Of a stretch of DNA of 64,000 nt, positions 55,603-59,800 are shown piece after piece; within the stretch, counting starts at the first letter, position 1, and each line of letters begins with the position of its first letter. The translations under genes were made by a program, and so were the position numbers. A model generated the notes under the pieces. The model saw nothing but the letters and a program-made list of their open reading frames with translations, was not told the origin of the DNA and ran no database searches. The stretch is from a virus (Duplodnaviria; Heunggongvirae; Uroviricota; Caudoviricetes): positions 32,001-96,000 of IMG/VR virus record IMGVR_UViG_2526164662_000021, one strand, 5' to 3'.

Positions 55603-56646
55603 GTGAAAGCCGTAATTACTCCCTTTGTACAAAAAGAGCTTGGCGTCGCCACATTCAAAGTGGATCAGGAAGTCAGAAAGCTGGTGGAGGCTGGCCGTAA
55701 ATTTATTATGGAGCCGGTGCCGCGTGAGTTAATCGAGCACATGGACGACGGCCTCGTTGTTTCCGAGCAAACTATGGCAACAAATGAGGCGTTGCAGCCG
55801 TTTTTTAACAGCGATGAACTGTTTCGCCGTATTGGTGGAATTGACGCGCTGGTGGCGTGGTTGCGCAGGAAAGAGGGGAAATGCCAGGCCGCAGATCGTA
55901 GCTGGTGTGACAACCATATTGTCCACGCAGAACGAGACAATAGCGCGGTGTTGTTGTGCTGGCATCACGATAACCATTACCGGATGCGTAGTTTTAATGA
56001 GCTGAAAGAAACGCTGCATAATAATCGCGTTAACTGGATACTGGATGTCGCCCGTCAGGAAATGGGGCTTTCAGATGGCCATGATTTAAGTATTCAGGAA
56101 CTGTGCTGGTGGGCTTTCATGCGCGACATGATGCACCTGATGCCGGAAGAAGTCTGCCGTATATCAATAAATAAGATTAAGGCTGCAACGCAGGATAGCG
56201 GACCTATGAAAGAGGCGGATATTCGCCCGTATGACGATCGCGCTACAGCATATGTTCAGATGATGGAAGAACGCGCCGCGCCGATGCGTGCAAAAGTATG
56301 CCCTGTGGATGTTGACTCCGACCCTGGCATGGCGCATTTCAAAATACCAAAACTGCAATCGCTAAAATTACCTGAGTACATGGACTTTGTTGCTTCCCGT
56401 CCATGCTGTGGGTGTGGAGCTGCGGGAGCTGGCGCTCACATTACGCCTTATATCGTTCGTCATAGTCGATTATGCGCGCATGACATTTACGCAATTCCTC
56501 TGTGCCAGTCATGCCAGCGTGATATTGAGCGTGACCGCGATAATTGGGAGAAGACGCACGGTAGGCTGGCGATGCATCAACGATTGTTCTTTGATTACGC
56601 GCTTGGAGTCGGCGCTATCACAAGTCACTCGTCGAGTGTTAGATAA
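55603..56646 (+). CDS. Cys/His-rich protein (hypothetical)
   Basis: 347-aa ORF with several Cys/His clusters (CWHHDNH, CCGCG, CQSCQ); non-ATG start likely. Confidence 0.45.
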
Positions 56647-56647
56647 A

Positions 56648-56664
56648 ATTGCTCTAATGTATTG
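56648..56664 (+). promoter_or_regulatory. Weak C1 operator-like 17-mer upstream of lpa-like gene
   Basis: ATTGCTCTAATGTATTG (13/17). Confidence 0.35.
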
Positions 56665-56734
56665 CTATTTCTTTAATCGAGGGTATTATATTCCACGTTG
56701 ATTAGTTGACATGGGCTAATCAGTAGGTGACAGG

Positions 56735-57187
56735 ATGTTACTTAACTGGCAGGGACGCCACTTCATGGAAATAAATCACTCACGAATAACATCGTACGAG
56801 ATTGCGGATTACATGATCCGCACTAAATCTCTTCTATCAGCGAAAGAACTCGCAGCAATTCTTGAAAAGGAATACCCGCATCTGGATGTCGATAAGCGCG
56901 ATGTTTATCTGCGCTTAAAGGCTATTGCTGTGTCTAAGTATTCGTCTGTTTTGATTGATGACAGTACACGCCCACGTAGATTTCAGATCCACTCTCTGAA
57001 TCCTGAATTCTTTCGCCGTAGCCGCGCTCCGCGCCGGTTTGATGAAAAACTCCAGAACGAACTCTATATGACGCAGGACGAAAAGGAACGCCGGGAGCAC
57101 CAGCCTTGGGTAATGGCGCGTCAACTTTTCAATAAGGTGGCCCGTCAGCACCGTCATTACGGTAATGCCACATCCGCACGTATGTGA
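56735..57187 (+). CDS. lpa: Late promoter activator Lpa-like protein
   Basis: 150-aa ORF between phd-doc region and pacA, preceded by a C1 operator-like site; assignment by position and size as recalled for P1, not by motif. Confidence 0.4.
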   Translation: MLLNWQGRHFMEINHSRITSYEIADYMIRTKSLLSAKELAAILEKEYPHLDVDKRDVYLRLKAIAVSKYSSVLIDDSTRPRRFQIHSLNPEFFRRSRAPRRFDEKLQNELYMTQDEKERREHQPWVMARQLFNKVARQHRHYGNATSARM

Positions 57188-57189
57188 CT

Positions 57190-58510
57190 GCTCCCCGCCC
57201 GGTTGGGCGAGGCTTCCCACATCTCAGGCCGCAACCGTCTGTACGACGGATTTACGCTGGCCTCCATGGGCAGAGACGACGAGTCCCGCCGCCTTTAGTT
57301 CCAGTATCCCTTTTTGCCGGATGTTGAGTGCCGCATTGATATCGCGGTCATGCTCTGCTTCACATTCAGGGCATCGCCAGATGCGTTTATGAAGCGGCAT
57401 TTCCGGCATTTTGTAACCACAACAATGGCACGTTTTCGAACTGGCAAACCACTGGTCGAGTTTTACCAGGTGAACGCCTTTTTCCGCTGCCTTGTACTCC
57501 AGCTTTGTGATGAAGCTATGCCAGCCTGCATCACCTATTGCTCTTGCCAGATTGTGGTTTTTCATCATGTTGGCTGTTTTCAGCGTCTCGACAATTACCG
57601 CTTGGTTTTCGTCAACAATTGTACGAGAAAGTTTATGTTGAAAATCAGCACGGGCATTCGCTACCCGTTCGTGTATGGCCGCAAGACGGATTCTGGCCTT
57701 TTTACGATTCGCGCTTCCCTTTTGCTTGCGGGATAGCGCTTTTTGTTTGCGTCGCAGATTACGGCTGGCATTGATGAGATGGCGGGGATTCGCAATTTTT
57801 GCCCGGTCAGACCTGATGGCATAGTGCTCAAGTCCCATATCCACACCAGTAATCTTTTCTTCCTCCAGATACGCAGGTTTCGCTGGTGTGGGAATACCGT
57901 CTTCACAAAGGATGGATGCGTAGTATTTCCCGGTGGCACTGCGAGTGATTGTTATGCTCGTCACTTTTCCCGTCATTACACGGTGTATACGCGCTTCTAT
58001 CGGTGCCAGCTTAGGAATTTTGATGGCATTCTCCAGTACTTTAATCCCGACACAATGGTAGCTCGATTGTTTCCCATGTTTACGTTTAAACGTCGGGAAC
58101 CGGGCTTTCAGCTTCGGATTAAAAAAGTTGGAAAACGCCACATCAAGATTAATCACCGCCTGTTGCAATGCCATTGAATCAAATTCTTTAAGCCAGGCAT
58201 ACTTACGGGACTTCTTCGCCACAGACAACAACGGTTTTAAATCTTTACGCGGACTTAAATTCACTCCGTGTCGCTGGTAAGCGTGTTTTTTGATGTGAAG
58301 AGCTTTGTTGTACGCAAAACGCACGGCGCCGAACTGGGCGTTGAGATACTCAGCCTGTTTAGTGGTTGGATAGATGCGTACTTTTGTCGCTCTTAACATA
58401 GTCACCGCTCATTGATACAGGTTTTTATGCTAACACCGTAATGATTTTTTTTTAAAGCCCTGTGGGCTTTCCCGCCTTTCCTCCCCGCCCGCATTGGGCG
58501 AGGGTTCTCG
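57190..58510 (-). mobile_element. IS200/IS605-family tnpB-only element
   Basis: tnpB flanked by direct copies of a hairpin-containing ~23-bp sequence: CTCCCCGCCCGGTTGGGCGAGG (57191-57212) and CTCCCCGCCCGCATTGGGCGAGG (58481-58503); no tnpA. Confidence 0.6.
57224..58405 (-). CDS. tnpB: TnpB (IS605 OrfB family, RuvC-like nuclease with C-terminal zinc finger)
   Basis: 393 aa; N-terminal MLRATKVRIYPTTKQ; C-terminal CHCCG...CPEC zinc finger and DRDINAALNI RuvC-III-like motif. Confidence 0.8.
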   Translation of the reverse strand: MTMLRATKVRIYPTTKQAEYLNAQFGAVRFAYNKALHIKKHAYQRHGVNLSPRKDLKPLLSVAKKSRKYAWLKEFDSMALQQAVINLDVAFSNFFNPKLKARFPTFKRKHGKQSSYHCVGIKVLENAIKIPKLAPIEARIHRVMTGKVTSITITRSATGKYYASILCEDGIPTPAKPAYLEEEKITGVDMGLEHYAIRSDRAKIANPRHLINASRNLRRKQKALSRKQKGSANRKKARIRLAAIHERVANARADFQHKLSRTIVDENQAVIVETLKTANMMKNHNLARAIGDAGWHSFITKLEYKAAEKGVHLVKLDQWFASSKTCHCCGYKMPEMPLHKRIWRCPECEAEHDRDINAALNIRQKGILELKAAGLVVSAHGGQRKSVVQTVAA

Positions 58511-58606
58511 GCGGTTGTTTGCTGATTGCTTGCCCGTTCCGGGCCTTTTGACATGTGACTTTCGTTACCCTCGCGTCAAAAAGAGTTTTTACGAAAGGAA
58601 GCATAA

Positions 58607-59800
58607 GTGACCTGGGACGATCACAAGAAGAATTTTGCTCGCCTGGCGCGAGATGGTGGTTACACCATCGCACAGTATGCCGCCGAGTTTAATCTTAACC
58701 CTAATACCGCACGTCGTTATCTCCGTGCCTTCAAAGAAGACACCAGGACTGCGGACAGCCGCAAGCCAAATAAGCCAGTCAGGAAGCCACTAAAAAGCAT
58801 GATCATTGATCACTCTAATGATCAACATGCAGGTGATCATATTGCGGCTGAAATAGCGGAAAAACAAAGAGTTAATGCCGTTGTCAGTGCCGCAGTCGAG
58901 AATGCGAAGCGCCAAAATAAGCGCATAAATGATCGTTCAGATGATCATGACGTGATCACCCGCGCCCACCGGACCTTACGTGATCGCCTGGAACGCGACA
59001 CCCTGGATGATGATGGTGAACGCTTTGAATTCGAAGCTGGCGATTACCTGATAGATAACGTTGAAGCGCGGAAGGCCGCGCGCGCTATGTTGCGTCGGTC
59101 CGGGGCCGATGTTCTGGAAACCACTCTTCTTGAAAAGTCTCTTTCTCATCTCCTTATGCTGGAGAACGCCAGGGATACGTGTATTCGCCTGGTGCAGGAA
59201 ATGCGCGATCAGCAAAAAGACGATGATGAAGGTACTCCGCCTGAATACCGTATCGCGAGCATGCTAAACAGCTGTTCCGCGCAGATAAGCAGCCTGATCA
59301 ACACCATTTACAGCATCCGGAATAACTATCGAAAAGAAAGCCGGGAGGCGGAAAAGCACGCTTTGTCTATGGGGCAAGCTGGCATTGTTAAGCTGGCATA
59401 CGAACGAAAGCGTGAAAATAACTGGTCAGTGCTGGAAGCGGCTGAATTCATCGAGGCGCATGGAGGAAAAGTGCCGCCCCTGATGCTGGAGCAAATCAAA
59501 GCCGATCTGCGTGCTCCTAAGACCAATACCGATGACGAGGAAAACCAAACAGCATCTGGCGCTCCATCACTTGAAGATCTGGATAAAATCGCGCGAGAAC
59601 GGGCCGCCAGCCGCCGCGCTGATGCCGCATTGTGGATTGAGCATCGTAGAGAAGAAATTGCCGATATCGTCGATACAGGCGGTTATGGTGATGTCGATGC
59701 GGAAGGCATATCAAACGAAGCATGGCTTGAACAGGATCTGGACGAAGACGAGGAGGAAGACGAAGAAGTTACCCGCAAACTGTACGGGGATGATGATTAA
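58607..59800 (+). CDS. pacA: Terminase/pacase small subunit PacA
   Basis: GTG start with AAAGGAAG RBS; 397 aa ([10 protein letters not shown]...); contains the pac site; acidic C-terminus. Confidence 0.85.
58800..58986. promoter_or_regulatory. pac packaging site (clustered TGATCA/G hexamers with GATC Dam sites)
   Basis: Four TGATCA at 58800, 58808, 58819, 58834 and TGATCG/TGATCA at 58930, 58942, 58953, 58981, inside pacA. Confidence 0.75.

What the first reader, a model, noticed from the sequence alone, without database searches (positions are those of the whole stretch)
57190..58510. Solo IS200/IS605-type tnpB element between lpa and pacA
A 393-aa TnpB with RuvC-like and zinc-finger motifs is flanked by direct copies of a ~23-bp hairpin-forming sequence (57191-57212 and 58481-58503), with no tnpA. 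Such elements encode an RNA from the tnpB 3-prime end/right end that guides TnpB as a programmable nuclease. The insertion separates the lpa-like gene from pacA, and the intact TGACT-N5-TAGAAT late motif seen before three other operons is absent upstream of pacA.
Basis: partly seen in the sequence, partly recalled or inferred. Interest (0 to 1): 0.5.

Follow-up and report, generated by a model that had tools for sequence, protein, structure and literature searches.

The report
Retargeted solo tnpB insertion sequence in P1-like plasmid
A 1.3-kb jumping gene that has lost its own transposase but keeps an RNA-guided nuclease (TnpB) sits between lpa and pacA of a P1-like phage-plasmid; this is ordinary in kind, except that its lineage has switched its four-base landing site from TTAG to TCAG through matching changes in its own end sequence.

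Summary
Window 57184-58521 (minus strand, 1338 bp) is a non-autonomous IS200/IS605 element of the ISEc46 family. It has an intact 391-aa TnpB, no tnpA, and left- and right-end hairpins in direct orientation. P1, P7 and about 590 P1-like plasmids lack it. It inserted without duplication 3' of TCAG, which overlaps the lpa stop codon. The element's own end supplies a new stop, changing Lpa I150 to M.

The pacA late promoter LPpac (58553-58571) is identical to P1's, so the hint that pacA lost its promoter is wrong.

A structured RNA overlapping the tnpB 3' end and right end has strong covariation support. Its predicted guide, ATACGTGCGGATGTGG, matches the empty lpa site of IS-free P1 relatives.

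The new point concerns the landing site. More than 55 independent relatives, including full ISEc46, sit after TTAG and carry left-end guide AAAC. This element and 14 other independent insertions sit after TCAG and carry GAAC plus a changed base at the hairpin foot. That is the IS608 cleavage-site/guide pairing rule, reset in nature. One of only three TnpB positions diagnostic of this clade (I/L76 to M) aligns with a known TAM-contact residue.

The kind is ordinary; the variant is modestly interesting.

The parts
57184..58521 (-). The whole element, 1338 bp: a non-autonomous (tnpA-deleted) IS200/IS605 element of the ISEc46 family, TCAG-targeting lineage.
   Evidence: The junctions with the P1 empty site are defined to the base. 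The ends coincide with the points where more than 70 related copies diverge from their flanks. The element aligns with the full-length L148 element apart from a ~451-bp tnpA deletion.
58522..58525 (-). TCAG: the target tetranucleotide (left cleavage site CL, and presumed TAM). It is flank-derived and not duplicated. On the + strand it reads CTGA and overlaps the ancestral lpa stop codon.
   Evidence: The P1 empty site reads ...CGTAT^CTGA.... All 15 independent insertions with this type of left end follow TCAG.
58440..58521 (-). Left end. GL guide GAAC at 58507-58504; hairpin IPL at 58503-58483 (CCTCGCCC-AATGC-GGGCGGGG); foot bases AG at 58482-58481; a second small hairpin GAAAGCCC-ACA-GGGCTTT; and about 14 nt remaining from the tnpA 3' end.
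   Evidence: Coordinates verified. Folding. Conservation. Deletion junction relative to L148.
57224..58399 (-). tnpB, 391 aa plus stop. RuvC triad D187/E271/D353 and zinc finger intact.
   Evidence: dN/dS is 0.07-0.19 among solo copies.
57184..57216 (-). Right end core. GR guide GAAG at 57216-57213; hairpin IPR at 57212-57193 (CCTCGCCC-AACC-GGGCGGGG); foot bases AG at 57192-57191; CR TCAC at 57187-57184. On the + strand GTGAC supplies the new last-codon base and the TGA stop of lpa.
57184..57294 (-). Predicted omega-RNA scaffold: five helices overlapping the last ~70 nt of tnpB and the right end. The 5' end is not determined.
   Evidence: Of 29 pairs, 18 show compensatory double changes. 98.1% of cells are paired, against 35-56% when partners are slid by 1-3 columns; 0 of 500 shuffles reach the observed values. 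The same helices appear in the single-sequence fold.
57168..57183 (-). Predicted 16-nt guide, ATACGTGCGGATGTGG. This is flanking DNA, antisense to the last codons of lpa.
   Evidence: The position follows from the ISDra2 rule: the guide is the 16 nt 3' of the right end (PMC10097598). The sequence is unique in the window. It is identical in P1, where TCAG precedes it.
56735..57187 (+). lpa (late promoter activator), 150 aa. The last codon changed from ATC (Ile) to ATG (Met), and the stop TGA now comes from the element.
58553..58571 (+). LPpac, the late promoter of pacA. It is identical to P1, lies 31 bp beyond the element's left end and ends 35 bp before the pacA start at 58607.

Best explanation
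This is a non-autonomous insertion sequence of the IS200/IS605 family, and its closest named relative is ISEc46.

Origin and insertion. It derives from a full-length element (divergent tnpA and tnpB) by a ~450-bp internal deletion of tnpA. A Y1 transposase supplied in trans moved it as single-stranded DNA ('peel and paste'). It landed exactly 3' of TCAG on the minus strand, with no duplication. The TCAG overlaps the lpa stop codon.

Target choice. The site is chosen by DNA-DNA pairing between four bases 5' of the left-end hairpin (GL = GAAC) and the target (TCAG). In the parent family GL is AAAC and the target is TTAG. This lineage therefore carries a natural reset of the target, with a matching change in the foot base that forms a triple with GL.

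RNA-guided function. The element expresses TnpB and an omega RNA made from the tnpB 3' end plus the right end. The guide is the 16 nt of lpa sequence just beyond the right end. The complex should cut P1-type DNA that carries TCAG directly followed by that sequence. That describes the empty site, either after excision or in an IS-free sibling phage-plasmid, and cutting there would favour retention or homing of the element.

Effect on the host replicon. The effect is minimal: Lpa I150M, stop codon preserved, LPpac untouched.

Shown here: anatomy, insertion site, target/guide covariation, RNA covariation, intact catalytic residues, purifying selection. Inferred: transcription of the RNA, nuclease activity, which TAM TnpB accepts, and the source of TnpA.
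For: - Empty versus filled site resolved to the base against P1 and E. albertii p2RM9973. The same insertion occurs in 7 plasmids.
- TnpB domains and triad; E = 1e-78 to the solved ISDra2 TnpB.
- No tnpA in the window. Full-length relatives with tnpA: ISEc46 in L088-L090, and the TCAG-type L148, with the deletion mapped. Copies identical to L148 occur in two complete E. coli genomes.
- Ends: the right end ...GAAG-CCTCGCC..GGCGGGG-AG-CAG-TCAC is conserved across 67 loci.
- Left ends: more than 55 independent TTAG/AAAC/AT sites, against 15 independent TCAG/GAAC/AG sites with no exception.
- The pattern matches IS608: CL TTAC with GL AAAG and foot AT; CR TCAA with GR GAAT and foot AG (PMC3201880, PMC5934647).
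- Omega-RNA covariation.
- dN/dS of 0.07-0.19.
- Guide unique in the window and present next to TCAG in P1.
Against: - No expression or activity data exist.
- Rfam has no family that matches the RNA, and no sigma-70-like promoter for tnpB passed the simple scan.
- Whether TnpB accepts TCAG is unknown. The RCS47 copy combines a TCAG-type left end with a TnpB essentially identical to that of TTAG-type ISEc46. So protein and DNA specificities may be uncoupled, or TnpB may tolerate either pyrimidine.
- The position-by-position pairing scheme (C1-G2, C2-G1, C4-G4) is my inference from five cleavage-site/guide sets. I did not read it from a structure.
- Only 7 of about 600 P1-like plasmids carry the insertion, so any homing drive is weak or recent.
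Confidence: 0.85

Rival explanations
1. Domesticated TnpB: the phage-plasmid keeps the gene for its own benefit, either as an RNA-guided weapon against competing P1-like genomes or as a TldR-like repressor, and the gene is no longer part of a mobile element.
For: The guide matches the lpa 3' end of IS-free P1 relatives, next to TCAG. tnpB is under purifying selection although tnpA is absent. Copies of this lineage lie mostly on plasmids and phage-plasmids.
Against: Both ends are complete and conserved, with guide and cleavage sequences intact. The lineage occupies at least 15 different sites, so it still moves. The insertion is in only 7 of about 600 P1-like plasmids. The catalytic triad is intact, so this is not a nuclease-dead TldR. 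Targeting the empty donor site is what any TnpB element does.
Confidence: 0.08
2. Inert relic: a dead insertion whose TnpB and RNA no longer function, kept only because it is neutral.
For: There is no tnpA in the window. No promoter was detected by the simple scan. Some related metagenome copies carry frameshifted or truncated tnpB (L127, L135, L136, L140, L143). Collapsed 47-nt remnants exist.
Against: The ORF is full length, and the triad and zinc finger are intact. dN/dS is about 0.1-0.16 against other solo copies. All five RNA helices are intact in this copy. The ends are intact.
Confidence: 0.07
3. The insertion matters mainly as a regulatory lesion: it uncouples pacA from its late promoter or from lpa read-through.
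For: 1338 bp of antisense-oriented DNA now lies between lpa and pacA. No TGACT-N5-TAGAAT motif lies upstream of pacA.
Against: LPpac is identical to P1 and lies between the element and pacA. P1's own LPpac also has TACCCT rather than TAGAAT. The lpa ORF is kept, with one conservative C-terminal change. The same insertion persists in 7 plasmids from E. albertii and E. coli, so it is compatible with maintenance of the plasmid. Whether they still form phage was not tested.
Confidence: 0.05

Closest known systems
ISEc46 (IS200/IS605 family; E. coli chromosomal copies, so named in the RefSeq and RCS47 annotations)
   Same: Same architecture of ends. The IPL and IPR stems are identical (CCTCGCCC/GGGCGGGG). 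The right end is the same...GAAG-hairpin-AG-CAG-TCAC. TnpB is 83-84% identical in protein and about 79% in DNA. The omega-RNA helices are the same.
   Different: ISEc46 carries a divergent tnpA, which this element lacks. ISEc46 has GL AAAC, foot AT and target TTAG; here they are GAAC, AG and TCAG. At TnpB position 76, ISEc46 has I and this element has M. At 79% DNA identity it would count as a different IS under the usual ISfinder convention (from memory). I could not query ISfinder.
Full-length TCAG-type element (L148, metagenome contig SKEU01000445.1; identical copies in E. coli GF60 plasmid NZ_CP172188 and TUM9803 chromosome NZ_CP135671)
   Same: Same left-end type (TCAG/GAAC/AG). About 91% DNA identity over both aligned segments. 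TnpB is 92% identical, with S59 and M76.
   Different: It has an intact tnpA (141 aa, 87% identical to ISEc46 TnpA). The window element has lost about 451 bp that include tnpA.
IS608 of Helicobacter pylori (the mechanistic paradigm for IS200/IS605)
   Same: The cleavage sites are read by 4-nt guides 5' of each hairpin. The third base of the site is an A. The foot bases co-vary with the first guide base (AA.. with AT; GA.. with AG). Insertion is 3' of a tetranucleotide without duplication. Spacing is similar: 18 nt from CL to the IPL foot here against 19 in IS608, and 9-10 nt from the IPR foot to the cut (PMC3201880, PMC5934647).
   Different: The sequences and targets differ (TTAC in IS608), and tnpA and tnpB are co-oriented in IS608. 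Target resetting in IS608 was done by engineering. Here it appears to have happened naturally within one lineage.
ISDra2 TnpB-omega RNA (PDB 8EXA, 8BF8, 8H1J)
   Same: 41% identity over 383 aligned residues (E = 1e-78). Same domain order and same D-E-D triad. The RNA comes from the tnpB 3' end plus the right end, and the conserved core is about 110-116 nt (PMC10097598).
   Different: The TAM is TTGAT in ISDra2 against TTAG or TCAG here. Several TAM-contact residues differ: Y52 to R, S56 to K, K76 to S, F77 to M, T123 to H, N124 to C; Q80 is kept. No activity data exist for this protein.

Membership tests
IS200/IS605 insertion sequences | Subterminal imperfect palindromes at both ends in the same orientation, with no terminal inverted repeats | tested here: met
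   IPL is at 58503-58483 and IPR at 57212-57193, both on the minus strand with the same stem. They are conserved at the ends of more than 70 relatives.
IS200/IS605 insertion sequences | Insertion 3' of a specific tetra- or pentanucleotide, without target-site duplication | tested here: met
   The empty sites in P1 and p2RM9973 carry one TCAG. The filled site has TCAG only at the left end, and no bases are gained or lost at the junction.
IS200/IS605 insertion sequences | Cleavage sites complementary to guide tetranucleotides 5' of each hairpin | tested here: met
   CL TCAG with GL GAAC, and CR TCAC with GR GAAG, fit the same scheme as IS608 TTAC/AAAG and TCAA/GAAT. There are 15 TCAG/GAAC sites and more than 55 TTAG/AAAC sites with no mixed case (PMC3201880, PMC5934647).
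IS200/IS605 insertion sequences | Encodes a Y1 HUH transposase, TnpA | tested here: not met
   There is no tnpA in the element or anywhere in the 64-kb window. tnpA is present in full-length relatives, and the deletion is mapped. The element is therefore a non-autonomous derivative, not an autonomous IS.
TnpB (OMEGA) RNA-guided nucleases | RuvC D-E-D triad and a zinc finger in the TNB domain | tested here: met
   D187, E271 and D353 align with ISDra2 D191, E278 and D361. CHCC...CPEC is present. Three Pfam domains match, and NCBIfam guided_TnpB is above its cut-off.
TnpB (OMEGA) RNA-guided nucleases | A structured RNA overlapping the tnpB 3' end and right end, followed by a flank-derived guide | tested here: met
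   The structure is supported by covariation: 18 of 29 pairs have double changes, and 98% of cells are paired. The transcript itself was not observed.
TnpB (OMEGA) RNA-guided nucleases | TAM-dependent, guide-dependent DNA cleavage | not testable with these tools
   This needs an interference or in vitro cleavage assay.
TldR (nuclease-dead TnpB-derived repressors) | Loss of RuvC catalytic residues, and loss of association with transposon ends | tested here: not met
   The triad is intact and both ends are intact.
Rfam RNA families | A match to a curated covariance model | tested here: not met
   Nothing relevant matched in 56500-59000 at E <= 1. The RNA is supported only by the alignment built here.

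The most novel reading that the evidence does not exclude
In this lineage the two independent readers of the landing site changed together. The DNA guide used by TnpA went from AAAC to GAAC, with the foot base going from T to G. The TAM-reading surface of TnpB changed from I/L76 to M, at the position equivalent to ISDra2 F77. Both would then recognise TCAG instead of TTAG. That would be a natural, coordinated retargeting of a transposon and its RNA-guided nuclease. It would also mean this copy is armed against the lpa end of every IS-free P1-like phage-plasmid and could home into them.
Probability: 0.3. Interest if true: 0.6.

Novelty: new variant of a known kind. Interest (0 to 1): 0.35.

Why it matters
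As an annotation the result is routine. RefSeq already labels the near-identical copies 'RNA-guided endonuclease TnpB family protein'.

The useful part is the comparison. It gives a clean natural example, with 15 independent insertions, of the target-resetting rule that was shown by engineering in IS608. It also provides closely related TnpB proteins (89-93% identical, and in one chimera essentially identical) attached to TTAG-type and TCAG-type ends. Together these form a ready-made test of how tightly TnpB's protein-read TAM must track TnpA's DNA-read target, and of which residue does the tracking (candidate: I76M).

For P1 biology there are two points. The insertion leaves lpa and LPpac functional on paper. 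And the plasmid carries a nuclease whose guide matches its IS-free relatives.

Tried and rejected
- Rfam search of 56500-59000 at E <= 1: only a chance snoRNA hit, and no omega-RNA family.
- Search for TnpB positions fixed-different between all TCAG-type and all TTAG-type copies: none, because the RCS47 copy is chimeric. With that copy moved to the other group, three positions emerge. One of three falling on one of seven known TAM contacts has roughly a 5% chance expectation. I treat this as a lead only. The TCAG clade is a single lineage, so these could simply be clade markers.
- The 4-bp difference between the P1 junction and the window junction first looked like a deletion caused by the insertion. 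It is a TTGA/TTGC repeat-number polymorphism that is also seen in IS-free plasmids.
- Promoter scan: it finds Plpa but nothing convincing for tnpB.
- Literature: no paper combines TnpB, TAM and TTAG. ISEc46 appears only in resistance-genomics surveys. Nothing specific links TnpB with P1-like phage-plasmids.
- The gapless repeat finder recovers only 14 nt of the hairpin repeat, because the loops differ in length.
- Other hairpin-like matches in the window (CCTCGCCC at 3060; CCCCGCCC at 1720 and 3123) are not element ends.
- Three of the 10 viral hits to the 17-mer were chance matches in unrelated sequence (L093, L097, L101).

Full report
**What the window is.** The region carries phd/doc, pdcA/pdcB, lpa, pacA and pacB in P1 order, and is 99.4-99.5% identical to P1 and P7 on both sides of the finding. 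Over 56700-59000 it is 99.9% identical to P1-like plasmids of Escherichia albertii from cranes.

**Checking the observation.**
- The ORF at 57224..58405 (-) exists. The conserved start is the ATG at 58399, giving 391 aa, as RefSeq annotates the related copies.
- Pfam finds HTH_OrfB_IS605, OrfB_IS605 and Cas12f1-like_TNB. NCBIfam guided_TnpB scores 347 bits against a cut-off of 100.
- The best solved relative is ISDra2 TnpB (E = 1e-78; 41% identity over 383 residues). The RuvC triad aligns as D187/E271/D353, and the CxxC...CxxC finger is present.
Each is an 8-bp stem, CCTCGCCC/GGGCGGGG, with a loop of 4 or 5 nt.
- tblastn with ISEc46 TnpA finds no tnpA anywhere in the 64 kb.

**Exact insertion.**
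- P1 reads ...CCGCACGTAT^CTGATTGATTGCTTGCCC... The window reads ...CCGCACGTAT[57184 GTGACTGC ... GGTTGTTTG 58521]CTGATTGCTTGCCC....
- Read on the tnpB strand, the element lies immediately 3' of TCAG, and nothing is duplicated.
- The 4-bp difference further on is a repeat-number polymorphism: P1 has CTGA-TTGA-TTGC-TTGC, E. albertii p2RM9973 has CTGA-TTGA-TTGC, and the window has CTGA-TTGC-TTGC. It also occurs in IS-free plasmids.
- The TCAG overlaps the lpa stop (ATC TGA). The right-end terminus, GTGAC on the + strand, turns this into ATG TGA. Lpa therefore keeps its length, with I150M.
- The annotated late promoter LPpac (ATGTGACTTTCGTTACCCT) is present unchanged at 58553-58571, between the element and pacA. 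Its -10 is TACCCT in P1 as well. pacA has not lost a promoter.
- Seven plasmids share this insertion (4 E. albertii, 3 E. coli) with intact tnpB. About 590 other P1-like plasmids in PLSDB carry the empty site.

**Family and ends.** A protein-guided scan returned 80 loci with 57-82% identical TnpB across Gammaproteobacteria.
- Downstream of tnpB, all complete copies end in ...GAAG-CCTCGCC(loop)GGCGGGG-AG-CAG-TCAC and diverge immediately after it. This fixes the right end at window 57184.
- Upstream, the flanks diverge 5' of a conserved TTAG, followed by CAAAA..CGCCGTAAAC-CCTCGCCC-loop-GGGCGGGG-ATATAAGGCG.
- E. coli chromosomal copies, annotated ISEc46, have a divergent tnpA between the left end and tnpB. 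They too follow TTAG.
- The window element is about 79% identical in DNA to these, and about 91% identical to solo copies on IncI1 and other plasmids.

**The target reset.**
- The window's left end differs from the family consensus in a coordinated way. The flank tetranucleotide is TCAG instead of TTAG. The four bases 5' of the hairpin foot are GAAC instead of AAAC. The two bases 3' of the foot are AG instead of AT.
- I collected every copy of this left-end type that I could reach: phage RCS47, E. coli plasmids, IMG/VR contigs and metagenome contigs.
- This gave 15 independent insertion sites. All follow TCAG. More than 55 independent AAAC-type sites all follow TTAG. No mixed case was found.
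- In IS608 the cleavage sites are read by pairing with guide tetranucleotides 5' of each hairpin: CL TTAC with GL AAAG, and CR TCAA with GR GAAT. The third site base (A) is unpaired. Two bases 3' of the hairpin foot form triples with the first two guide bases: AG at the right end, with A+42/T+43 the equivalents at the left end. Changing GL redirects integration (PMC3201880, PMC5934647).
- A single scheme (site base 1 with guide base 2, site base 2 with guide base 1, site base 4 with guide base 4) fits the two IS608 sets, this family's TTAG/AAAC and TCAC/GAAG, and the variant TCAG/GAAC. The foot bases follow the same AA-to-AT and GA-to-AG pattern. The scheme is my inference from these five sets. 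The principle comes from the cited papers.
- The lineage is therefore a natural instance of target resetting.
- A full-length TCAG-type element with its own tnpA exists. It is L148, whose TnpA is 87% identical to ISEc46 TnpA. Identical copies occur in two complete E. coli genomes.
- The window element equals the L148 element minus about 451 bp.

**TnpB and the TAM.**
- TnpB reads its TAM through protein contacts. In ISDra2 these are Y52, S56, K76, F77, Q80, T123 and N124 (PMC10097598).
- No residue separates all TCAG-type copies from all TTAG-type copies. This is because the RCS47 copy is chimeric: it has a TCAG-type left end and a TnpB essentially identical to that of ISEc46.
- With that copy set aside, only three of about 391 positions are diagnostic of the TCAG clade. 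The comparison includes L086, a TTAG-type solo copy that is 89-93% identical.
- One of the three is position 76 (I/L to M), which aligns with ISDra2 F77.
- All 15 non-chimeric TCAG-type sites have M76, and none of 23 TTAG-type sites does.
- This suggests co-adaptation but is weak evidence. The clade is a single lineage, the chance expectation is about 5%, and K76, the ISDra2 reader of position -3, is a serine throughout this family, which may mean that position -3 is read loosely.
- dN/dS of 0.07-0.19 among solo copies shows that tnpB is maintained by selection without tnpA.

**The RNA.**
- I aligned the last 230 nt (tnpB 3' end to the right-end terminus) of 54 copies. The alignment gives five helices spanning columns 123-251, which correspond to window 57294-57193. 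The scaffold as reported runs on to the right-end terminus at 57184.
- Of 29 pairs, 18 show changes on both sides. 98.1% of cells are paired, against 35-56% when partners are slid. None of 500 shuffles reaches the observed values.
- Much of this lies inside the coding sequence, so protein constraint alone does not explain it.
- The window copy forms all five helices.
- By the ISDra2 rule the guide is the next 16 nt, ATACGTGCGGATGTGG (57183-57168). It is unique in the window.
- In P1 the same 16 nt directly follow TCAG. The empty site is therefore the predicted target, while the filled site has TCAC in place of the TAM.

**Verdict.** The hint about the promoter is wrong. The element is an ordinary kind of thing that public pipelines already annotate. 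What is worth keeping is the naturally reset target (TTAG to TCAG) with its matched DNA changes, and a candidate matched TnpB change.

Noticed in passing
L095 1334-2661 versus L100 45-95 (IMG/VR contigs); also L106, L107 (two copies), L109-L111, L114, L119, L120, L123: The same flanks carry either a full solo element (L095) or a 47-nt remnant (L100). The remnant consists of the left-end 5' part, one hairpin and the right-end tail (TCAG|CAAACAACCGCCGAGAAC-hairpin-AGCAGTCAC). The two hairpin direct repeats therefore recombine and collapse the element. TTAG-type 46-47-nt versions occur at several sites and may be mobilisable miniature elements.
   Followed up: partly
L002 (phage RCS47, FO818745.1 56139-57472); also L096, L098, L099: The RCS47 copy is chimeric. 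Its left end is TCAG-type (GAAC/AG) and it sits after TCAG, but its TnpB is essentially identical to chromosomal ISEc46 TnpB (I76, A59), which belongs to TTAG-type elements.
   Followed up: partly
window 58522-58535; L001 1985-2002; L091 660-675: The lpa-pacA spacer contains a short TTGA/TTGC repeat tract whose copy number differs among P1-like genomes: four units in P1, and three (in different combinations) in the window and in p2RM9973.
   Followed up: yes
window 58472-58513 (minus strand) and the same region of L003-L082: An outer helix encloses the guide, hairpin and foot bases of the left end, and it co-varies among relatives: CGCC...GGCG, CCGC...GCGG, CCCC...GGGG.
   Followed up: no
L083 (IncI1 plasmid pMTY10828, between ardA and psiA) and 11 metagenome contigs with the same flank: The commonest TCAG-type solo copy sits in the leading region of IncI1 plasmids, the part that enters recipients as single-stranded DNA. 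That would suit an element that transposes through single-stranded DNA.
   Followed up: no
L127, L135, L140, L136, L143 (metagenome contigs): Some TCAG-type copies have frameshifted or truncated tnpB, so decay does occur in the lineage even though the average shows purifying selection.
   Followed up: no
window 1715-1745: A GC-rich hairpin, CACCCCGCCC-TGCGGA-CGGGGTG, turned up in the motif search. It is unrelated to the element ends and is probably a terminator-like structure.
   Followed up: no
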